Of a DNA stretch of 15,180 nucleotides, positions 1-14,460 are shown piece by piece (the first letter of the stretch is position 1; every line of letters begins with the position of its first letter). The notes under the pieces are model-generated. The model saw only the letters and a program-made list of their open reading frames with translations. It made no database searches and was not told where the DNA came from. The stretch comes from an uncultured archaeon. GTDB lineage: Archaea > Asgardarchaeota > Lokiarchaeia > Helarchaeales > HEL-GB-B. Both the position numbers and the translations under genes were made by a program. The stretch is taken from positions 1-15,180 of the forward strand of contig CAZYEE010000001.1 in assembly GCA_964646355.1 (NCBI GenBank). The letters run 5' to 3'.

Positions 1-335
1 ATAGGTGTGAATTTTTTACGTTCAGCCCAATAATCAATTTCGCGGTATTCAAGTGTGGAACCGCATTTGTTACATTTTTCACCTTCTTTACTTGGATATT
101 CAATCCAGTTGCAATTAGGGCACCACGAAACATAATAGATGACTTTACCAGTAAGAGGTTCATGATCTTTAGTACCACGTATGCAATTCATTAATACTGA
201 TTTTCCTGAGCCTGACTTACCAAGAATGCCAAAGGAATCACCCTCATTTATTTCAAAATTAATGCGCTTAATTGCAGGTTCTCCACGTACGAATTCAACA
301 GATAAATCTTCGACTTTTAAGAAGAGTTTGCCCAT
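1..335 (-). CDS. ABC-type ATPase, N-terminal part only (AtwA / methyl-CoM-reductase component A2-like, with zinc-ribbon insert); the rest lies beyond the left window edge
   Basis: My own translation of the minus strand from the ATG at 335-333 gives MGKLFLKVEDLSVEFVRGEPAIKRINFEINEGDSFGILGKSGSGKSVLMNCIRGTKDHEPLTGKVIYYVSWCPNCNWIEYPSKEGEKCNKCGSTLEYREIDYWAERKKFTP..., open to position 1. It has a Walker A motif (GKSGSGKS). This is followed by a CxxC-x14-CxxC insert and an (E/D)xDYW segment, as I remember for AtwA-family ABC ATPases. There is an in-frame TAA upstream of the ATG and a weak GTGA 4 nt upstream. The ORF is absent from the supplied track because it has no stop inside the window. Confidence 0.8.
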   Translation of the reverse strand, partial: MGKLFLKVEDLSVEFVRGEPAIKRINFEINEGDSFGILGKSGSGKSVLMNCIRGTKDHEPLTGKVIYYVSWCPNCNWIEYPSKEGEKCNKCGSTLEYREIDYWAERKKFTP

Positions 336-520
336 AAAATCACTTAACAGTATTTATAATGTATTAGTTATTTTTAATTACTAAAATAATTTTTCTTAAA
401 AAATATTTTGAATAATTTAAATAACAGAACTAGGAACACTTCCCATAAAATAGATTTTTGGGGGAAAATAACGATATTTTAGTAAAATATAGCGATGTAA
501 ATTTAAAATAATAGATATAC

Positions 521-569
521 TAGGATATTTTATTATGAAAATAGACACATTAAGATATCTTATTATGAA
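521..569. repeat. 19-bp imperfect direct repeat TARGATATYTTATTATGAA x2 (521-539 and 551-569, 17/19 identical, 30-bp register)
   Basis: Read directly from the sequence: taggatattttattatgaa / taagatatcttattatgaa. It lies in the 695-bp spacer between the divergent ABC-ATPase and ftsZ genes. Function is unknown. Confidence 0.6.
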
Positions 570-896
570 TCATAAAATTCAATATGTTAATATAAAATAA
601 AGAAAAATGAAATAAGTATTATAGATATTTTTTAAAAAAATTAAAGAGTATATACGATTGGTAAAATATAAACAGGTATTTGTTTTCATTATTAATAATT
701 ATTTGATATTTTGTTTTTAAGCAGATTTTCAAAAAGTATTAAAATTTTTATTTAATTTATAAATAAAATATTTACAGATATTAATACACATTGGGTTATA
801 AAATTCAATGTAAATCTATTTATTAAATTTTATATTCATATGTTTATTTAATTTGATGCTAATTTATGGAATGATTTAAAATATACTGTAAATTTG

Positions 897-913
897 AAAT
901 TTGGCGCAAATTT
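897..913. promoter_or_regulatory. Inverted repeat AAATTTG-gcg-CAAATTT containing TTTGGCGC (matches the eukaryotic E2F consensus TTTSSCGC), ~125 bp upstream of the ftsZ ATG
   Basis: The 7-bp arms at 897-903 and 907-913 are exact reverse complements. TTTGGCGC lies at 900-907. A second GCGC (AGCGCT palindrome) lies at 936-941. Its role as a binding site is a hypothesis only. Confidence 0.3.
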
Positions 914-1030
914 ATGATCTTTTATTTTTTTTCGGAGCGCTGTTAGCTTGTGAGGAAAATAATATCCCAATAATACTCGGATTAAAATTAATTTTGAGAG
1001 GTTAATAAAGATAGAGAAAGGTGTATAGAG

Positions 1031-2889: not shown

Positions 2890-3498
2890 GTGAATGATAA
2901 AGTGGCAGAAATACATATTAAGGAAAGGAGAAAGAAGGAGCAAGGCTCATCGATATATGTAGTAAGAACTACAATTGGGCAAGAGAAACTGGTAGCAAAG
3001 TCGATCCAACTCCGTGTTGAGAATGAGGGTGTAAAGATTAAAGCGATTCTTGTACCAGATACTCTACGGGGTTATATATTTGTAGAAGCAATGGAAATTG
3101 CTACTGTGGCAGATGCAATTAGAGGATTGCGACATGTCAGAGGTTATAATGCTGTGGGTAAGGTGGATATATCTGAAATTGAGCCCTTCTTAATACCTGC
3201 TCCGCCTACTCAAGGACTTAATGTGAATGATGTCGTAGAAATTGTTTCAGGGCCCTTTAAAGGTGAGAAAGCAAAAATTACCAGGATCGACTCTGCCAAA
3301 GATGAAGTTATTTTAGAACTATTTGAGAGCCCATATCCTATTCCTATTCGAGTTCATGCCGATTATATACGATTAGTCCAATCATCAGAAGAGAAAGAAG
3401 GTGCAGAAGAAAGAAGAAAAGAAAAAGGTGTTTCAGAAGAGGAAATAAGTTCAAAAGAAGAAGAGGAAGAAGAAAAAGAAGTTTTTTTCAAATTATAA
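2890..3498 (+). CDS. nusG: Transcription elongation factor Spt5 / NusG (NGN + KOW) with a charged C-terminal extension
   Basis: The NGN domain is seen in IYVVRTTIGQEKLVAKSI...LRGYIFVEA...VRG. The KOW motif is seen in VVEIVSGPFKGEKAKITRID...EVILEL. No in-frame ATG is available near the 5' end, so the start is GTG at 2890 or possibly GTG at 2902. The last ~38 residues are a Glu/Lys/Ser-rich tail. Confidence 0.93.
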   Translation: MNDKVAEIHIKERRKKEQGSSIYVVRTTIGQEKLVAKSIQLRVENEGVKIKAILVPDTLRGYIFVEAMEIATVADAIRGLRHVRGYNAVGKVDISEIEPFLIPAPPTQGLNVNDVVEIVSGPFKGEKAKITRIDSAKDEVILELFESPYPIPIRVHADYIRLVQSSEEKEGAEERRKEKGVSEEEISSKEEEEEEKEVFFKL

Positions 3499-3805: not shown

Positions 3806-4333
3806 TTATCCTACTGGCTCTACGATCAATCCAGGAGAGTCTACTTCGATAAATACCTGGTATTTTGAGGATAAGACGCGTTTAATCTTTTCTGAAGGTG
3901 ATTTTGATCTGATAATAATGCTTTTATTCGGGAAATTTGTTGGTTTATCGCCTTTTTTAGTATGAATTTTGCTGATTACATTATTTAACATATCGATTTT
4001 TCTTTTTAACTCAAGATTTTCCTTTTCAAGTTCTTTTAATCTATTAAGCTCTTTATAGACCTCATCAGTGATTTTGGCTTTTTGTGTTGATTTTTGATCT
4101 TCAGATTTGACCATATCAGAGCCTTGATTGCTATTGCCTATCCAGTAAATTCTAGTACCACCTTTTTCTCTTTTTGTTGCAATAACATTCGATGCTTTCA
4201 AAATAGCGATAATATCATAAATCCGTCTTCTAGGAATGTTGAGCTTCTTAGCTAACTCGATATTATTTATTCCTTTATCTCCAACAGTTTGTAAAACCTT
4301 TATCGAATCTCTCGCTATATCTATTAATCTCAT
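3806..4333 (-). CDS. Winged-helix DNA-binding protein with E2F/DP-type RRxYD recognition motif, central coiled coil and short beta-rich C-terminus
   Basis: The N-terminus INNIELAKKLNIPRRRIYDIIAILKASNVIATKREKGGTRIYWIG matches the E2F/DP wHTH pattern (L..aA..L.v.+RRIYDI.NVL...g+I.K.....I.W.G). Residues 90-123 (DEVYKELNRLKELEKENLELKRKIDMLNNVISKI) are heptad-like. A TTTAAATTTTATT TATA-like box starts ~29 nt upstream of the ATG, suggesting a leaderless or very short leader. The CDS itself is solid; the family call is by-eye. Confidence 0.7.
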   Translation of the reverse strand: MRLIDIARDSIKVLQTVGDKGINNIELAKKLNIPRRRIYDIIAILKASNVIATKREKGGTRIYWIGNSNQGSDMVKSEDQKSTQKAKITDEVYKELNRLKELEKENLELKRKIDMLNNVISKIHTKKGDKPTNFPNKSIIIRSKSPSEKIKRVLSSKYQVFIEVDSPGLIVEPVG

Positions 4334-4430
4334 AGTTTATACCATTTTCAATAAAATTTAAAGATTTTAATTAATCTTAATGTAATTCTACAAACGATAA
4401 CTTAAAAAATTTATGAAAAATAAAGTTGTT

Positions 4431-4484
4431 ATTATTTTAACAATTTTACCATTATTTTACAATAAATTTTAACAATTATCATTA
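4431..4484. promoter_or_regulatory. Three copies of ATTTTA(A)CAAT in the divergent promoter region between the E2F-like regulator and the YkgJ gene
   Basis: ATTTTAACAAT lies at 4434-4444, ATTTTACAAT at 4454-4463, and ATTTTAACAAT at 4466-4476. The outer copies share an exact 12-mer, ATTTTAACAATT, 32 bp apart. This is a candidate operator or promoter-element array. Confidence 0.4.
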
Positions 4485-4566
4485 ATTTTGTGTTATTTAA
4501 TTACACATCTCTTAAAAATATTTTATAATATTTTTACCCACATATTATTAAATTATAATTGAATGA

Positions 4567-5187
4567 ATGAAAAAAACTCAAAAAATAAAACTGATCAGAA
4601 TGAAAATTTATCGATTTGAGTGCCAGAAATGCGGTCTATGTTGTAGAAACAAGAATCTAATTGTGACATTAACTCATAGAGATTTGCTTTCTATATATTA
4701 TGGTTTGAAGATGAAAAATGTAAAAGATTTACTAAAAATTGTAGCTTTTTATCAAGTTGATGTAAATAATAAAGAATTAATGGAAAGATTAATCTATCCT
4801 GTATTTTATTTAAAAGAAAATTATATGTTATTAGGGTTATTTAAAATAAATCAAACTGATTGTATCTATTTAAAAGATAATAAATGCAGCATATATGAAT
4901 TAAGACCACAAATTTGTCGGATATTTCCATTCACTTTTGTTGAAAAATCAAATCACTTAAAATTACAAGTCAATTCAATTGCTTCTGAAATTTGTATCGG
5001 ATTAAATAAAGGAAACATTGTAGATATGAAATCTCTCAGAAATTTATGGAAAAAGATAATAGAGGAAAAAGAAGAATATGAAAAACTGATATCAATATGG
5101 AATAATTTGGTATTTAACGGAATACTGGATCCAGATCCAATTACATTTCTGAATTTTATTTTAGGAAATATTAAAATTAATATATAA
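4567..5187 (+). CDS. YkgJ-family (UPF0153) Cys-cluster zinc/iron-chelating protein
   Basis: The N-terminal CQKCGLCCRN (CxxCxxCC) and the downstream CIYLKDNKCSIYELRPQICRIFPF (C.[FY]L...C.IY..RP..CR.FPF) together make the characteristic YkgJ/CxxCxxCC family pattern. Confidence 0.8.
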   Translation: MKKTQKIKLIRMKIYRFECQKCGLCCRNKNLIVTLTHRDLLSIYYGLKMKNVKDLLKIVAFYQVDVNNKELMERLIYPVFYLKENYMLLGLFKINQTDCIYLKDNKCSIYELRPQICRIFPFTFVEKSNHLKLQVNSIASEICIGLNKGNIVDMKSLRNLWKKIIEEKEEYEKLISIWNNLVFNGILDPDPITFLNFILGNIKINI

Positions 5188-5314
5188 TATATAACCAAAT
5201 TCTTTAAAGTGTAAGAATAATATATTTCTATAATAAGCATTTATTTGAAACCTCACAAAAAATTTTTATTTTTTATCGAAAGATGTAATTTGTATTTTTT
5301 GAAAGGTGATCATA

Positions 5315-5680
5315 ATGTCAGTTGAAGATGAAATAAAAGAATTAGAAGCTCAGTTAGCAAAAAAGAAAGAAGAAATTAAGGAAATTGAAAGTAAATTGGC
5401 TGAATTAAGAGCAAAAACGGGTAAATCAAAAACGATTTTAGGCGTTCCGATAGATCAAACTACTCGGGGTACAAAGAAAAAAATAATTCAGCAACGCATT
5501 CCAACAAGCGGTACCTCTCAAATAAAATATAGAGAAACACAATATGAATGTCCTATGTGTGGAAGTAGATATAATTATGAAGTAGAGGACAAATCACGTA
5601 TTTTATATATTGACGGTGCAGGTACTAGATTTTACGGAAAGAAACATCGATGCTTAAATTGCGGAAACGAATGGGTTTAA
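5315..5680 (+). CDS. Small coiled-coil + zinc-ribbon protein (hypothetical)
   Basis: The ORF track starts at GTG 5306. However, AAGGTGA at 5303-5309 sits 5 nt before ATG 5315, so I prefer 5315. The N-terminus EDEIKELEAQLAKKKEEIKEIESKLAELRAK is coiled-coil-like. The C-terminus carries CPMCG-x32-CLNCG, a four-Cys ribbon. Confidence 0.7.
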   Translation: MSVEDEIKELEAQLAKKKEEIKEIESKLAELRAKTGKSKTILGVPIDQTTRGTKKKIIQQRIPTSGTSQIKYRETQYECPMCGSRYNYEVEDKSRILYIDGAGTRFYGKKHRCLNCGNEWV

Positions 5681-9427: not shown

Positions 9428-10456
9428 TCATTTAGAACCTTTTTTGTTTGTTTTTTCCGTCGGAATTTCTAATGAAATCTTAAGTTTCTCGGATAATTTT
9501 TGAGTAATATTTATACATCTGTCCATTTCCTCTTGAATTTTTATTATTTTCTTGAATTCTTTAGTTACATCTTCAAAATTTTTATTTAAAGTATCTATTT
9601 GGTCTGATTGTGATTTATATTCAGTATTTAACAGATTTAGGCTGTTTTTCAAATTTTTGATAACTTCTTCATATGTTTCAATCAACTTAGTTTTATTAGG
9701 CTTTTTATTAGTGATAATTTCAATAGAATTTTTCAATTCGGTTATCATATTTTCAATATTGGTTAACGATTCTTGTATCTCATTTATTCTTAATTTGTAT
9801 TTATCAATAATATTGTCAAATTCATTATGTTTCATTTCTAATGCATGTAAATCGTCTTCATATTCTTTAATTTCTTCATCTAGTTCAGCTTTTCTCAATT
9901 TTCTTCTTTCAATCTGTTCTTCCAGATTTTTTAATTCTTCTTCCTTTACTTTAATTAAATTATTTGAGTTTTGGAGCTCTAATCTATTATTTTCAATCGA
10001 GAGTTTTAAAGCATCATTCTCAGCTTTTATACTTGCGATTCTGTTTTCCAAAGCTTCAATATCTTCAAGATAATTGGTTTTTTTTCGTTCTAATTTTTCT
10101 AATTCTTTCTTTAATTTCGAAATTTCATTACGTAACCCATCTACTTGTGAGATTTTTTCTTTAAATTTATCATTTAACTCGATTAATTTAATTTCCCTGC
10201 TTTTTATTTCATTAGTTATTGAATTTACCCTGTTTGAAAGTTCAATTTCTTGTACTTTTAGATTATTTATATTCGCTTTTAATTCATTTAACTCCTCCTC
10301 TTTTGAAGATATTTTTTTCAAAATTGATTCATATTCAGATTTTTTGGATTCAAGTTCATTTGAAATATCTTCAATTTTTTTGGAATTAAGGGATCCTTTT
10401 GTTGAAAATTCCTCAATTGAGTTATTATTCTTATTATAATTCACTTCGATAACCAA
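9428..10456 (-). CDS. Coiled-coil protein (hypothetical, SMC/Rad50-arm-like composition, no globular domain recognised)
   Basis: This is a 342-aa ORF that is almost entirely E/K/L/N/I heptad-like sequence (e.g. LRNEISKLKKELEKLERKKTNYLEDIEALENRIASIKAENDALKLSIE). It is the only long ORF in this interval; the three + strand ORFs overlapping it are low-complexity shadows. The start is uncertain: TTG 10456 or GTG 10444, with no ATG near the 5' end. Confidence 0.75.
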   Translation of the reverse strand: MVIEVNYNKNNNSIEEFSTKGSLNSKKIEDISNELESKKSEYESILKKISSKEEELNELKANINNLKVQEIELSNRVNSITNEIKSREIKLIELNDKFKEKISQVDGLRNEISKLKKELEKLERKKTNYLEDIEALENRIASIKAENDALKLSIENNRLELQNSNNLIKVKEEELKNLEEQIERRKLRKAELDEEIKEYEDDLHALEMKHNEFDNIIDKYKLRINEIQESLTNIENMITELKNSIEIITNKKPNKTKLIETYEEVIKNLKNSLNLLNTEYKSQSDQIDTLNKNFEDVTKEFKKIIKIQEEMDRCINITQKLSEKLKISLEIPTEKTNKKGSK

Positions 10457-12147: not shown

Positions 12148-13041
12148 TTGGATATGGAAGAACTTTTCAAATTGGAGATTATATTTTATAAGCGGTGGCC
12201 CAATATAGGTTCGACACGCTACAGTATTGGATATCCTTTAGAGGTTTCTGACCTCAAATACAATGAGCCAACAGAGTTAATCCATAGATATTGGGATAAG
12301 TGTTATAAAGAATTTCATGATAAATTTTCACTCGCTATCGGTCTGTCTGAAAAAATGGACTTCGATGGGAAAAAATTGAAGTATCGGGGAGATAAATGTA
12401 TGTATGCTGTGATTTCTCAATACAAATTTTTCAATCCAAACCCTACAAGGAACGACCCGAATGTACTTCATAGTATTAATATTTTGTATTCGTATCACCT
12501 CGTATTAGCTGCTCCCAGTAGAATTCAAAGTTTTAACCCAATGCCTAAAGAAGTTTTAGATAGCATCAATTATGTAAATTGGTTGGAATTTGATATAATA
12601 GAACCTAGAGATTATATTTATAATTCAAAGATATCAACATTAATTCATTATAAGACAGAGTTCTTAAGCCCAGTAGAAATGATCAAGAAAAATTGGAAAC
12701 ATTTTAAGAAAGATACTTTATATCCCAAATTTGGCGAAGATCCAGCTAATTTAAAGGGAAATATTGATTTAACATCATTATTTGTTGAACAAAAAAATCC
12801 GAATGGATGTTTAAGAGCATTAAAGTATAAAAATAGAAGATTAATTAATGGATATTATCTTGTATTGAATAAGGATTATTCTATTAAAGATATAGTTGAA
12901 TTTTATCCCGAAGATAAGATTGATAAATATTTGGAAAAAAAGAATTTAGAAGTAAAGGAAATAGAAAATGAGATTGAAAGTGGAGACGGTATTCAGAAAT
13001 ATTTTAAGATATTAGACAAATTACTCGAATATGATTTATAA
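12148..13041 (+). CDS. Hypothetical protein (297 aa, aromatic-rich, no recognised domain); first gene of a 3-gene cluster
   Basis: This is a long ORF with the strongest SD-like site in the window: AAGGGGGT at 12132-12139, 8 nt before TTG 12148. An alternative ATG lies at 12154. It shares strand with the next two ORFs at short spacing. Confidence 0.7.
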   Translation: MDMEELFKLEIIFYKRWPNIGSTRYSIGYPLEVSDLKYNEPTELIHRYWDKCYKEFHDKFSLAIGLSEKMDFDGKKLKYRGDKCMYAVISQYKFFNPNPTRNDPNVLHSINILYSYHLVLAAPSRIQSFNPMPKEVLDSINYVNWLEFDIIEPRDYIYNSKISTLIHYKTEFLSPVEMIKKNWKHFKKDTLYPKFGEDPANLKGNIDLTSLFVEQKNPNGCLRALKYKNRRLINGYYLVLNKDYSIKDIVEFYPEDKIDKYLEKKNLEVKEIENEIESGDGIQKYFKILDKLLEYDL

Positions 13042-13143: not shown

Positions 13144-14460
13144 ATGAGCGTTAAAAGTGAAAAAAATGTTATGAAATTAATAAATAAAATTCCGGATATT
13201 AAAATTAGAGAGGCTATTGATAAATTAATAAAATTTATTAAAATTCTAGAAAAAAAATACGTTTTAGACTTAAAATATCAATATAATCGTTTTGATAAAA
13301 AAAAGTTTATGTATGAACCTAAAGATGTTAGATATATTTCCCATAGAATTCCCGAATATGAGTTAAATGATCTAAATAAATGGGATTTTAGAGCTTATTA
13401 TAAAATTTTCCAAGGCCCAAAAGTAGATGCAGATTGGTTGAAGACTGGGCTCGTACAATTAGATGACCTTTTAAAAATATTTCTTCATAATAAGGATTAC
13501 TTGAATATTTTATTAGAATTTCTTGAGTGCCCAGCGAAATTATTGACAAAAACGTTGAATTTTAATAAAGATAAAATTAGTAGGAGAATATATCCATATG
13601 GAGATTTATTAGATTCCTTAATTCGTTATTATCACGTAGCTTGGGGAGAAAATGTATACATACTTGATTATCCTCAAGGATTACGTTTAATTTATGATAA
13701 TTGGATAAGAGATGAATATTGTCCTAATTACTTATTAAGAAAAAGTTTGGATGAAATTTTGGAAATGAAAAAAGAGTTTTTGGGATTATTGAAAAAGGCA
13801 GAAGAATATGAACTACCAGCTGATATTAGAAAATTTATAATCGCGATAAGAAAAATTGACAATTATCTCGAGAAAAAGGGTTCTAGATATTTTAATGAAT
13901 TTCGAGATATGTTCTGGAAAAAAATAAAGAAAGAAAAAATAAGAAAAAAATTCCCAAAAATTGATAATTTTAACAAATTCCTATATCCTTTCTCATATAG
14001 CAATCCTGAAACAGATTTGGCACTTAAATCATGTTATAATTGCATCCATTATAATGATGGAAAATATTATAAAATAGATAGATATTGTGGAATATCCGAA
14101 ATAATACTTAATTATAGAGATTTTCACGAAGGATTAAACAAATTTAATTTTCCATGCACTTTAATATTTAAAAAAGAGCATTTTGGCAATTATGATGATG
14201 CCTTTAATGTAAAAAGTGCGCGAAAACGTGAAAAAATTGAAGACCCCAATTATCTATGCCCATTTTATATTTTAGATGAAAAACACTTTTTAAAATCATT
14301 AAAAGAATATTACAAATTTATTAAAGAAAAGGAAAAACTTTTAGAAAAGAAAAAGATCAGTGAGGGTATTAAGGACATATTCCTTGAATGTAAGGATTGT
14401 GGTAAAACATCACCATTATTTGCAAAATATTGTTTACATTGTGGTAATCTATTATTATAA
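13144..14460 (+). CDS. Hypothetical protein (438 aa): helical-looking N-terminal ~295 aa + Cys-rich C-terminal module ending in a CxxC-x10-CxxC zinc ribbon
   Basis: This is a long ORF with GTGAGGA ~8 nt upstream of the ATG. The C-terminal region contains CYNC, RYC, FPC and YLC, and ends in CKDCGKTSPLFAKYCLHCGN. Confidence 0.8.
   Translation: MSVKSEKNVMKLINKIPDIKIREAIDKLIKFIKILEKKYVLDLKYQYNRFDKKKFMYEPKDVRYISHRIPEYELNDLNKWDFRAYYKIFQGPKVDADWLKTGLVQLDDLLKIFLHNKDYLNILLEFLECPAKLLTKTLNFNKDKISRRIYPYGDLLDSLIRYYHVAWGENVYILDYPQGLRLIYDNWIRDEYCPNYLLRKSLDEILEMKKEFLGLLKKAEEYELPADIRKFIIAIRKIDNYLEKKGSRYFNEFRDMFWKKIKKEKIRKKFPKIDNFNKFLYPFSYSNPETDLALKSCYNCIHYNDGKYYKIDRYCGISEIILNYRDFHEGLNKFNFPCTLIFKKEHFGNYDDAFNVKSARKREKIEDPNYLCPFYILDEKHFLKSLKEYYKFIKEKEKLLEKKKISEGIKDIFLECKDCGKTSPLFAKYCLHCGNLLL

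What the first reader, a model, noticed from the sequence alone, without database searches (positions are those of the whole stretch)
3806..4333. Compact archaeal protein with the whole E2F/DP-like layout: RRxYD winged helix + coiled coil + marked-box-like tail
Residues 22-66 (INNIELAKKLNIPRRRIYDIIAILKASNVIATKREKGGTRIYWIG) align by eye with the E2F/DP DNA-binding domain as I remember it: E2F4 ...[43 protein letters not shown], and DP ...[28 protein letters not shown]. The match includes the hallmark RRxYD recognition-helix motif (RRIYD, nt 4214-4228 on the minus strand, verified codon by codon) and the I-x-W-x-G wing. As in E2F/DP, a heptad coiled coil follows (res 90-123). The last ~40 residues, IIIRSKSPSEKIKRVLSSKYQVFIEVDSPGLIVEP, resemble the end of the E2F coiled-coil/marked-box module (E2F4 ...AIRAPSGTSLEVP...KYQIHLKSVSGPIEV, from memory). 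E2F/DP is regarded as a eukaryote-type cell-cycle transcription factor family. A 175-aa prokaryotic protein carrying all three modules would bear on the origin of that family and on archaeal cell-cycle control. It also sits beside the ftsZ block.
Basis: partly seen in the sequence, partly recalled or inferred. Interest (0 to 1): 0.75.

Follow-up and report, generated by a model that had tools for sequence, protein, structure and literature searches.

The report
Asgard archaeal E2F/DP-like transcription factor
This gene encodes a small Asgard-archaeal relative of the eukaryotic cell-cycle regulators E2F and DP; such relatives are already published, but its second half looks like the E2F-DP pairing module, which the literature says these archaeal proteins lack.

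Summary
The ORF (3806-4333, minus strand, 175 aa) is real and reads as described. Its N-terminal domain is a genuine E2F/DP winged helix: Pfam E2F_TDP scores 34.1 bits against a cut-off of 25.7, RRxYD and the wing Trp are invariant in 27 homologues, and canonical eukaryotic E2Fs are the next hits after the archaeal family. This is already known. Eme et al. [quoted passage not shown]

The C-terminal half is a four-heptad zipper with a conserved Asn at an 'a' position, followed by a conserved four-stranded beta unit. Modelled alone (pLDDT 89), its six best matches among 350,542 PDB chains are all E2F/DP coiled-coil/marked-box chains. Each match is weak (best E=0.23). Sequence tests on the tail are non-significant, but so is the E2F-versus-DP positive control.

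The ftsZ adjacency holds only in this clade (4 of 25 loci). The neighbours conserved across Asgard lineages are a CxxCxxCC gene and a cyclophilin-like gene.

Verdict: a known family. The whole-layout claim is plausible (about 55%) but not proven, and a cell-cycle role has no support.

The parts
3806..4333 (-). Complete gene for the 175-aa Asgard E2F/DP-like protein (ATG at 4331-4333, stop at 3806-3808)
   Evidence: Full-length homologues of 160-185 aa start with the same MKLV/MRLI N-terminus.
4136..4300 (-). E2F/DP-type winged-helix DNA-binding domain (residues 12-66)
   Evidence: Pfam PF02319 at 34.1 bits against a 25.7-bit cut-off. The family profile hits E2F8 at 1.5e-7 and the E2F4 DNA-binding domain at 5.5e-4 in the PDB. 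AlphaFold gives H-H-H plus a beta hairpin, pLDDT about 90.
4214..4228 (-). RRIYD recognition-helix motif (residues 36-40)
   Evidence: Read directly from the sequence. R36, R37, Y39 and D40 are invariant in 27 homologues.
4136..4144 (-). Wing motif W64-I-G66
   Evidence: W64 is invariant. It aligns with the WKG of E2F4 and E2F8.
3974..4060 (-). About four heptads of leucine-zipper-type coiled coil (residues 92-120), with core L102, N106, L109, I113, L116. The AlphaFold helix spans residues 78-124.
   Evidence: Conservation and 3-4 spacing. Single long helix at pLDDT above 90. hhalign against the E2F coiled coil scores 27.8, against 16.0 for the reversed template and 14.7 at most for shuffles.
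3815..3934 (-). Conserved C-terminal beta unit (residues 134-173), with four strands at about 139-143, 150-155, 160-164 and 169-173. Candidate marked-box-like dimerisation domain.
   Evidence: F134, K149, I150, V153, G168 and E172 are invariant and P173 is nearly so. Strands. Also present in short archaeal paralogues that lack the coiled coil. Foldseek with the C-terminal half alone gives E2F/DP CC-MB chains at ranks 1-6.
4334..4566 (.). Intergenic region shared with the divergent CxxCxxCC gene (4567-5187, plus strand). It holds a TATA-like TTTAAATT at 4355-4362 (minus strand, -29 to -22 from the ATG) and three copies of TTGT(T)AAAA (plus strand TTTT(A)ACAA) within 4435-4475.
   Evidence: Sequence. 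The block is conserved in L001 and L007. No CGCG or GCGC core is present. The roles as promoter or operator are inferred.
4567..5187 (+). CxxCxxCC-domain (PF03692) gene, a conserved neighbour and candidate local target
   Evidence: Pfam hit. A homologue lies next to the E2F-like gene in 15 of 25 loci across Asgard lineages.

Best explanation
The gene encodes a member of the Asgard-archaeal E2F/DP family of transcription factors. The organism is Helarchaeota-like with about 25% GC.

Inferred: it recognises a GC-core site of the E2F type.

Shown from sequence and model: it is followed by a short leucine zipper with a conserved Asn at a core 'a' position, then a conserved four-stranded beta unit.

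Inferred: these two elements make the protein a parallel homodimer that places two winged helices on a palindromic site. This would be the one-gene equivalent of the E2F-DP heterodimer.

Probable, about 55%: the zipper plus beta unit is the evolutionary counterpart of the E2F/DP coiled-coil/marked-box (CC-MB) module. In that case eukaryotes inherited the DNA-binding and dimerisation core and later added the transactivation and pocket-protein-binding regions.

The protein ends at residue 175, so it has no Rb-binding or transactivation region. Its targets are unknown. The best candidates are the neighbours conserved across Asgard lineages (the CxxCxxCC and cyclophilin-like genes), and ftsZ is a weaker candidate.
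For: DNA-binding domain: Pfam E2F_TDP above its gathering score in this protein and in 27 of 27 homologues. PDB best hits are E2F8 and E2F4. In a search of 1.84 billion proteins, the roughly 36 archaeal relatives are followed directly by proteins confirmed as canonical E2Fs with E2F_TDP plus E2F_CC-MB.

Co-linearity: the Asgard profile aligns to E2Fs in one stretch from the DNA-binding domain through the coiled coil (query 6 to about 120). In several it runs into the marked box, pairing F..IxIRAxKSLKItEV / IEVxIKAxGKG with F.nq.i.aIKAPpea.L / eI.vKAennG.

Zipper: 3-4 hydrophobic spacing, with L102, L109, I113 and L116 at 96-100% and N106 in 22 of 27 sequences. Asn at an 'a' position marks parallel dimeric zippers such as GCN4 (established knowledge).

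Fold: the C-terminal-only model has pLDDT 89.2. Its Foldseek ranks 1-6 of 350,542 chains are 5tuv_A, 5tuv_D, 2aze_B, 5tuv_E, 2aze_A and 5tuu_A, which are all E2F or DP CC-MB chains; the top probability is 0.82 and alignments cover 82-100 of 100 residues.

Domain status of the tail: short archaeal paralogues consist of winged helix plus tail with no coiled coil.

Distribution: every hit carrying a taxonomic name is an Asgard MAG, apart from one 'Deferrimicrobium' MAG contig, covering Hel, Loki/Prometh, Thor, Hod, Heimdall, Odin, Baldr, Borr and Sif lineages. This agrees with Eme et al. 2023.
Against: No Pfam E2F_CC-MB (PF16421) or DP (PF08781) hit for this protein at E up to 10, and neither is among the 25 families listed of the 193 that the 27 homologues match. 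Neither the full-length nor the C-terminal-only family profile finds a CC-MB chain in the PDB at E up to 10, or within the best 60 shown.

Tail-only hhalign against the E2F CC-MB gives P=0.3, and 39 of 60 column shuffles score as well. Against the last four marked-box strands it gives P=0.079. The tail HMM reaches at most 1.9 bits on E2Fs.

Foldseek E-values are 0.23-5.3 and TM-scores 0.25-0.41. A 'long helix plus small beta sheet' query may favour these chains on architecture alone, and I could not run a control query.

The model is a monomer, so dimerisation is inferred. Eme et al. 2023 state that the dimerisation domain is absent. The coiled coil is missing in some family members, for example the Sif long forms and the short forms.
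Confidence: 0.6

Rival explanations
1. The published view: only the winged helix is homologous to E2F/DP. The zipper and beta tail are an unrelated, Asgard-specific oligomerisation or ligand-sensing module. On this view the resemblance to CC-MB is architectural convergence, as in other prokaryotic regulators built as wHTH, coiled coil and C-terminal domain.
For: Eme et al. 2023 state it explicitly. No sequence test of the tail reaches significance. Foldseek E-values and TM-scores are weak. BusR, which has a wHTH, coiled coil and C-terminal domain, is the top whole-model hit, so this layout recurs independently. The coiled coil is not universal in the family.
Against: The six best PDB matches of the C-terminal half all come from the only three CC-MB entries found here. 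The modules occur in the same order and with similar spacing as in E2F and DP. The sequence negatives carry no weight, because the true pair E2F CC-MB against DP CC-MB also fails (score 13.4, P=0.13). The best local tail matches always fall on the same marked-box strand, and scores against real E2Fs exceed reversed decoys (Mann-Whitney p=0.004).
Confidence: 0.33
2. It is an archaeal cell-cycle regulator that controls ftsZ, like E2F at the G1/S transition.
For: ftsZ lies about 1.7 kb away. A canonical E2F site, TTTGGCGC, sits inside the near-palindrome AAATTTGGCGCAAATTT at 894-910, about 125 bp upstream of the ftsZ ATG and about 15 bp after a TATA-like AAATATAC.
Against: The ftsZ-secE-spt5 block is adjacent in only 4 of 25 loci, all from this clade. 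The nearest relatives L001 and L007 have no such site anywhere, including upstream of ftsZ. The window-wide count is 3 against 0.58 expected, reached by 3 of 200 shuffles, and two of the three sites are inside coding sequence.
Confidence: 0.12
3. It is a generic MarR/ArsR/TrmB-type winged-helix regulator in which RRxYD arose by chance, or a recent transfer of a eukaryotic E2F fragment.
For: Whole-model Foldseek returns MarR, ArsR and Z-alpha folds. Weak TrmB and HTH_11 Pfam hits occur in most members.
Against: E2F_TDP is the only family above its cut-off, and it scores about 17 bits more than TrmB. Eukaryotic E2Fs are the closest non-archaeal relatives among 1.84 billion proteins. The family spans nine or more Asgard lineages with conserved neighbours, which argues for old vertical inheritance. 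Identity to eukaryotic E2Fs is low and limited to the core.
Confidence: 0.03

Closest known systems
Asgard archaeal E2F/DP homologues (Eme et al. 2023, Nature, Suppl. 4.1.5 and sequence table; arCOG02749)
   Same: The same family: PF02319-bearing proteins of about 120-185 aa found across Asgard lineages, with conserved base-contact residues. Sequences listed there (for example Sifarchaeia WORA1_00190) are identical to proteins retrieved here (P0091).
   Different: The paper says homology stops at the DNA-binding domain and that the dimerisation domain is missing. Here the C-terminal half is a conserved zipper plus four-strand unit whose best structural matches are the E2F/DP dimerisation module.
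Eukaryotic E2F1-6 (E2F_TDP + E2F_CC-MB + transactivation and pocket-protein-binding tail)
   Same: Winged helix with RRxYD and a W-x-G wing. A coiled coil starts about 25 residues after the wing. A beta-strand region follows, with a similar pattern (hhIAIKAP..t.LEV / YqI.LkS..GpI.V against IxIRA.KSLKItEV / IEVxIKA.GKGIxVEP)..
   Different: Less than half the size. The zipper is about four heptads rather than five or six. The first marked-box strand and helix, and the variable insert, are absent. There is no transactivation or Rb-binding region. No DP-like partner gene was seen in the genomes sampled from its own lineage, so a homodimer is presumed. No Pfam CC-MB hit.
DP1/DP2 (E2F_TDP + DP domain)
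   Same: The top Foldseek hit (5tuv_A, probability 0.82) is, by inference, a DP1 chain. DP1 also has a coiled coil, a short linker, and four short strands in about 38 residues ([38 protein letters not shown]), which aligns co-linearly with the 40-residue Asgard tail at low confidence.
   Different: The DNA-binding domain is closer to E2F than to DP (DP2 E=0.054 against E2F8 1.5e-7; no DP among the best 150 hits). DP has further C-terminal helices. Sequence similarity of the tail is not significant (P=0.24).
E2F7/E2F8 (atypical E2Fs with two tandem winged helices)
   Same: E2F8 is the best sequence match in the PDB. Both bind DNA without a DP partner.
   Different: E2F7/8 place two DNA-binding domains in one chain and have no CC-MB. 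The Asgard protein has one DNA-binding domain and would need to dimerise.
Prokaryotic regulators built as wHTH, coiled coil and C-terminal domain (BusR; TrmB family)
   Same: The overall plan of an N-terminal wHTH, a dimerising coiled coil and a small C-terminal domain. BusR is the top whole-model Foldseek hit.
   Different: The Pfam TrmB score is below its cut-off. Their C-terminal domains (RCK_C, sugar-binding) are much larger and unrelated. None of them appears in the fold search with the C-terminal half alone.

Membership tests
E2F/DP family (DNA-binding domain level) | Significant match to Pfam E2F_TDP (PF02319) above the gathering score | tested here: met
   34.1 bits against 25.7, E=2.2e-8. 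27 of 27 homologues match, best 5.9e-11.
E2F/DP family (DNA-binding domain level) | RRxYD motif in the recognition helix | tested here: met
   R36-R37-I-Y39-D40, invariant in the family.
E2F/DP family (DNA-binding domain level) | Beta-hairpin wing ending in W-x-G | tested here: met
   W64 is invariant. A hairpin follows helix 3 in the model, pLDDT about 90. It aligns with the WKG of E2F4.
E2F/DP family (DNA-binding domain level) | Reciprocal closeness: eukaryotic E2F/DP are the nearest relatives outside the protein's own group | tested here: met
   In 1.84 billion proteins, archaeal relatives are followed directly by proteins with E2F_TDP plus E2F_CC-MB.
E2F/DP family (full architecture) | Coiled coil immediately C-terminal to the DNA-binding domain | tested here: met
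   Heptad core at 92-120 with Asn at an 'a' position. Long helix. hhalign against the E2F coiled coil scores 27.8, above the reversed template (16.0) and shuffles (14.7 at most).
E2F/DP family (full architecture) | Sequence match to the marked-box models (Pfam E2F_CC-MB PF16421 or DP PF08781) | tested here: not met
   Neither is listed for this protein at E up to 10, nor among the 25 families shown of the 193 that the 27 homologues match. Tail-only profile tests are at chance. Caveat: the positive control E2F CC-MB against DP CC-MB also fails (P=0.13), so this test has little power.
E2F/DP family (full architecture) | CC-MB fold: a helix followed by beta strands that form an intermolecular sandwich | tested here: inconclusive
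   The C-terminal-only model's Foldseek ranks 1-6 of 350,542 chains are all E2F/DP CC-MB chains, but E is 0.23-5.3 and TM is 0.25-0.41. The model is a monomer and no control query was possible.
E2F/DP family (full architecture) | Dimerisation (E2F-DP heterodimer) needed for DNA binding | not testable with these tools
   No multimer prediction was available. A homodimer is inferred from the zipper. One Sifarchaeia genome has a long and a short paralogue, so heterodimers are possible in some lineages.
E2F/DP family (full architecture) | C-terminal transactivation and pocket-protein (Rb) binding region (E2F1-5) | tested here: not met
   The protein ends at residue 175, two residues after the last strand. 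This agrees with Eme et al. 2023.
E2F/DP family (function) | Binds TTTSSCGC-type sites and drives cell-cycle genes | not testable with these tools
   Leads only. TTTGGCGC lies upstream of ftsZ here but is not conserved. GGCGCC or TTTGGCGC lies upstream of the E2F-like gene in four independent lineage groups, with borderline statistics.
TrmB / MarR / ArsR generic wHTH regulators | Pfam family match above the gathering score | tested here: not met
   TrmB scores 17.2 against 25.6, HTH_24 14.7 against 21.9, and MarR_2 gives only weak hits in 8 of 27 members.

The most novel reading that the evidence does not exclude
Asgard E2F/DP proteins already carry the complete DNA-binding plus dimerisation core of the eukaryotic E2F-DP factor: winged helix, zipper and a marked-box-like beta unit. 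They would act as homodimers on palindromic GC-core sites. The eukaryotic heterodimer would then have arisen by duplication of this one gene, without a later fusion of a dimerisation domain. This would overturn the published statement that the dimerisation domain is absent in Asgard archaea.
Probability: 0.5. Interest if true: 0.7.

Novelty: new member of a known kind. Interest (0 to 1): 0.5.

Why it matters
E2F-DP controls entry into S phase in eukaryotes, and its origin bears on how eukaryotic cell-cycle transcription evolved. [quoted passage not shown] The open question is whether the pairing module also predates eukaryotes.

If it does, the ancestral factor was a self-sufficient homodimer, and the E2F/DP split was a simple duplication. 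The compact 175-aa archaeal protein would then be a minimal model for how E2F-type dimers read DNA. The claim is directly testable with a multimer prediction, a crystal structure, SEC-MALS and DAP-seq.

The conserved pairing with CxxCxxCC and cyclophilin-like genes, rather than with division genes, warns against assuming a cell-cycle role.

Tried and rejected
1. Whole-model Foldseek. It returned only generic winged-helix folds, and the E2F/DP DNA-binding structures were not in the top 50, so it cannot discriminate here.

2. Family profile and C-terminal-only profile against PDB sequences. The first found only the DNA-binding domain, the second only generic coiled coils.

3. hhalign of the tail against E2F CC-MB, the last four marked-box strands, and DP. 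All were at chance. I rejected these as evidence either way after the E2F-versus-DP control also failed.

4. Tail-only HMM against E2F regions with reversed and shuffled decoys. Scores were about zero. There was a small excess over decoys, but E2Fs are not independent samples.

5. ftsZ linkage. Rejected as a conserved association.

6. The E2F site upstream of ftsZ. Not conserved in L001 or L007.

7. Enrichment of E2F-type sites in non-coding DNA of 17 non-redundant loci. There were 7 sites against 0.96 expected by simple shuffling (P<0.003), but 3.95 by a conservative shuffle (P=0.08), and GGCGCC is no more common than other GC hexamers. Kept only as a lead.

8. Rfam and tRNA scans of the window and of loci with conserved leaders. 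Nothing found.

9. Literature searches for an architectural analysis of Asgard E2F. None found beyond Eme 2023 and review mentions. Liu et al. 2021 was not available.
Full report
**1. The observation**

The ORF at 3806-4333 on the minus strand is real. RRIYD is residues 36-40, nt 4214-4228. The window has 23-38% GC. It carries FtsZ (1031-2128), SecE, Spt5/NusG, a CxxCxxCC-domain gene divergent from the ORF, ArgD- and ArgC-like genes, and a 342-aa coiled-coil protein.

**2. Whether the E2F/DP resemblance is more than chance**

It is. Pfam E2F_TDP is the best hit (E=2.2e-8, 34.1 bits against a gathering score of 25.7). The next family, TrmB, scores 17.2 bits, below its cut-off. The best PDB sequence hit is E2F8.

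A word-indexed search found 29 homologues of 160-175 aa, all with PF02319 precomputed. A profile search raised this to 67. Those that carry a name are Helarchaeota, Lokiarchaeota/Promethearchaeota, Hodarchaeota, Thorarchaeota and Ranarchaeia MAGs. One is already named 'E2F family transcription factor' by NCBI and one 'transcription factor E2F3' by JGI.

In the 27-sequence alignment, R35-R37, Y39, D40, W64 and other residues are invariant (its numbering is one lower because Met1 was left out). The family profile hits E2F8 (1.5e-7), the E2F4 DNA-binding domain (5.5e-4) and DP2 (0.054) in the PDB.

An exhaustive HMMER search of 1.84 billion representative proteins gave 390 hits. About 36 archaeal relatives came first, followed directly by longer proteins. 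I confirmed ten of these as canonical E2Fs carrying both E2F_TDP and E2F_CC-MB. A scan of GTDB species genomes found 18 loci. Seventeen are from Asgard MAGs (Hel, Odin, Baldr, Borr, Hod, Heimdall, Sif, Asgardarchaeum). One is from a contig labelled 'Deferrimicrobium' that has the Asgard-type neighbourhood.

**3. What is already known**

The review 'The Archaeal Cell Cycle' (PMC7617429) says Asgard genomes have been reported to encode E2F homologues.

Eme et al. [quoted passage not shown] Its supplementary table lists 151 PF02319 occurrences (one per listed Asgard sequence line). One of these sequences is identical to P0091 retrieved here.

So the winged-helix part of the finding is known. The claim that the whole layout is present runs against the published statement.

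**4. Anatomy of the C-terminal half**

All full-length members share the same order: winged helix, variable linker, conserved heptad segment, short linker, conserved tail with consensus F....IxIRAxKSLKITEVxSSGIEVxIKAxGKGIxVEP.

The heptad core has strict 3-4 spacing: 92, 95/96, 99, L102, N106, L109, I113, L116, 120. L109 is 100% conserved, L102, I113 and L116 are 96-100% hydrophobic, and N106 is Asn in 22 of 27 sequences. A conserved Asn at an 'a' position is the classical mark of a parallel, in-register dimeric zipper such as GCN4. That is established knowledge. Dimerisation here is an inference from it.

AlphaFold2 with the family alignment (pLDDT 79.6) gives a three-helix winged helix with a beta-hairpin wing, one long helix (true residues 78-124), and four strands (139-143, 150-155, 160-164, 169-173). 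Only the linkers have low confidence.

The wide search also turned up short archaeal paralogues of 113-137 aa that have the winged helix and the tail but no coiled coil, for example P0082, P0094 and P0176. The tail is therefore a domain in its own right and the most constant partner of the winged helix.

**5. Sequence tests of the tail against the marked box**

The evidence against is as follows:
- Pfam lists no E2F_CC-MB or DP hit for this protein at E up to 10. Neither is among the 25 families shown for the 27 homologues, which match 193 families in all.
- Neither the full-length nor the C-terminal-only profile finds 2AZE, 5TUU or 5TUV chains. The latter finds only generic coiled coils.
- hhalign of the tail alone against a 59-sequence E2F CC-MB alignment gives score 8.3, P=0.3, and 39 of 60 column shuffles do as well.
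- Against the last four marked-box strands it gives P=0.079.
- A tail HMM reaches at most 1.9 bits on E2F post-DBD regions.

Some weak points favour homology:
- Greedy hhalign realignment reproduces that register over all four strands.
- The best local tail match always falls on the T[VI]IAI[KR]AP.GT strand, and real scores exceed reversed decoys (Mann-Whitney p=0.004). E2Fs are not independent samples, though.
- The coiled-coil segment aligns to the E2F coiled coil with score 27.8, against 16.0 for a reversed template and at most 14.7 for shuffles.

The control settles how to read all of this. E2F CC-MB against DP CC-MB, which are partners in the same solved heterodimer, gives only score 13.4 and P=0.13. 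Profile comparison therefore has no power for this module, and the negatives above are uninformative.

**6. Structural test of the tail**

I modelled the C-terminal half alone (residues 76-175, 35-sequence alignment). The model has pLDDT 89.2, with a helix and four strands. I searched it against 350,542 PDB chains.

Ranks 1-6 are 5tuv_A (E=0.23, probability 0.82), 5tuv_D, 2aze_B, 5tuv_E, 2aze_A and 5tuu_A. The alignments span 82-100 of 100 columns. From rank 7 on, the hits are unrelated and have probabilities of 0.11 or less. 2aze_B is E2F1 and 5tuv_B (two chains) is E2F5. By elimination, 5tuv_A/D, 2aze_A and 5tuu_A are DP1, so chains of both partners are hit.

The hypothesis was fixed before the search, and only three entries contain this fold. 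Such a ranking would be very unlikely if there were no real architectural similarity.

There are four caveats:
- No hit reaches E of 1e-3 or better.
- TM-scores are 0.25-0.41. This is expected if the angle between helix and sheet differs in a monomer model, but it is also what a loose match would give.
- 'Long helix plus small sheet' chains are rare in the PDB, so architecture alone may drive the ranking.
- I had no structure jobs left to run a control query.

Together with the homologous DNA-binding domain and the identical module order, I put homology of the zipper plus tail with CC-MB at about 55%.

**7. Genomic context and function**

The ftsZ-secE-spt5 block is adjacent only in the window and its close relatives L001, L002 and L007.

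Across 25 loci from many Asgard lineages, 24 have a cyclophilin-like gene (PF04126, 18 loci), a CxxCxxCC gene (PF03692, 15 loci), or both, beside the E2F-like gene (gaps 3-536 bp). The orientation varies. In the window the CxxCxxCC gene is divergent across a 233-bp intergenic region, which is the classic layout of a local regulator and its target.

That region has no GC-core site. It has a TATA-like TTTAAATT at -29 to -22 from the ATG, compatible with a leaderless transcript (inferred). It also has three TTGT(T)AAAA repeats that are conserved in L001 and L007.

**8. E2F-type sites (a lead only)**

TTTGGCGC lies within the near-palindrome AAATTTGGCGCAAATTT at 894-910, about 125 bp upstream of ftsZ. 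It is absent from L001 and L007.

Elsewhere:
- GGCGCC lies about 134 bp upstream of the E2F-like start in L015, L017 and L019.
- It lies about 224 bp upstream in L014, L018 and L022, and about 25 bp upstream in L012.
- TTTGGCGC lies about 57 bp upstream in L023.
- In L012 and L023 the site directly follows a TATA-like box.

In non-redundant non-coding DNA there are 7 sites, against 0.96 expected from simple shuffles (P<0.003) or 3.95 from a conservative shuffle (P=0.08). GGCGCC is not more frequent than other GC hexamers.

**9. Verdict**

The gene is a new member of the published Asgard E2F/DP family.
- Its marked-box reading is plausible, and it contradicts the literature's statement that there is no dimerisation domain. 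It rests on a fold ranking, without significant scores.
- The novelty premise and the ftsZ hint do not hold.

The most likely mechanism is a homodimeric, E2F-type DNA-binding factor whose targets are unknown and are probably local.

Noticed in passing
window 894-910: AAATTTGGCGCAAATTT is a 7+7 inverted repeat around GCG that contains the canonical eukaryotic E2F site TTTGGCGC. It lies about 125 bp upstream of the ftsZ ATG and about 15 bp after a TATA-like AAATATAC, in DNA of about 24% GC. It is not conserved upstream of ftsZ in L001 or L007.
   Followed up: partly
L012:3976, L014:3777, L015:2730, L017:3865, L018:3777, L019:3869, L022:3775, L023:3944: GGCGCC (or TTTGGCGC in L023), the core of the palindromic E2F site, lies at fixed distances upstream of the E2F-like gene in four independent Asgard lineage groups. 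In L012 and L023 it directly follows a TATA-like box. The enrichment statistics are borderline. It may be an autoregulatory operator.
   Followed up: partly
L015:2720-2866, L017:3855-4001, L019:3860-4001: The roughly 140 nt between the GGCGCC element and the start codon are almost identical in Odin- and Baldr-labelled MAGs, while the sequence further upstream is not. The block includes a hairpin, GAGAGGTAT(N9)ATACCTCT. No Rfam or tRNA match. It could be a conserved leader or a small RNA.
   Followed up: partly
25 loci (window, L001-L024): A cyclophilin-like gene (PF04126, 18 loci) and a CxxCxxCC-domain gene (PF03692, 15 loci) flank the E2F-like gene in 24 of 25 loci across Asgard lineages, in varying orientations. 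This three-gene neighbourhood is conserved and its function is unknown.
   Followed up: partly
window 4435-4475: Three direct copies of TTTT(A)ACAA (TTGT(T)AAAA in gene orientation) lie in the intergenic region between the E2F-like and CxxCxxCC genes. They are conserved in L001 and L007 and could be promoter or operator elements.
   Followed up: partly
window 2890-3498 (+): Spt5/NusG is 202 aa. After the NGN and KOW domains (ending near residue 143) it has a Ser/Glu/Lys-rich acidic C-terminal extension of about 50 aa (SSEEKEGAEERRKEKGVSEEEISSKEEEEEEKE...). The L001 orthologue has a similar length (200 aa).
   Followed up: no
window 1-1030: About 1 kb upstream of ftsZ has no ORF of 80 aa or more and about 24% GC. 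In L001 the equivalent position holds a divergent 190-aa gene only 140 bp from ftsZ. This could be a rearrangement or a decayed gene.
   Followed up: no
window 5306-5680 (+): A 124-aa protein with an N-terminal coiled coil and a C-terminal CPxC...CxxC zinc ribbon has no Pfam family above its cut-off. It is conserved beside the CxxCxxCC gene in L001, L002 and L007.
   Followed up: no
window 9428-10456 (-), 12148-13041 (+), 13144-14460 (+): There is a 342-aa all-coiled-coil protein with crescentin- and tropomyosin-like weak hits, and two ORFs of 297 and 438 aa with no Pfam match at all.
   Followed up: no
L010 (DATKTP010000167.1) / P0023: A family member sits on a contig labelled 'Candidatus Deferrimicrobium sp.', a bacterial name. 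Its neighbourhood (cyclophilin-like, E2F-like, CxxCxxCC) is the Asgard arrangement, so the contig is probably mis-binned.
   Followed up: partly
Eme et al. 2023 suppl. table; P0091 and P0062-P0067: One Sifarchaeia genome (WORA1) encodes both a short form (125 aa, no coiled coil) and a long form (185 aa) of the protein. Some Asgard lineages therefore have two paralogues that could pair, as E2F and DP do.
   Followed up: no
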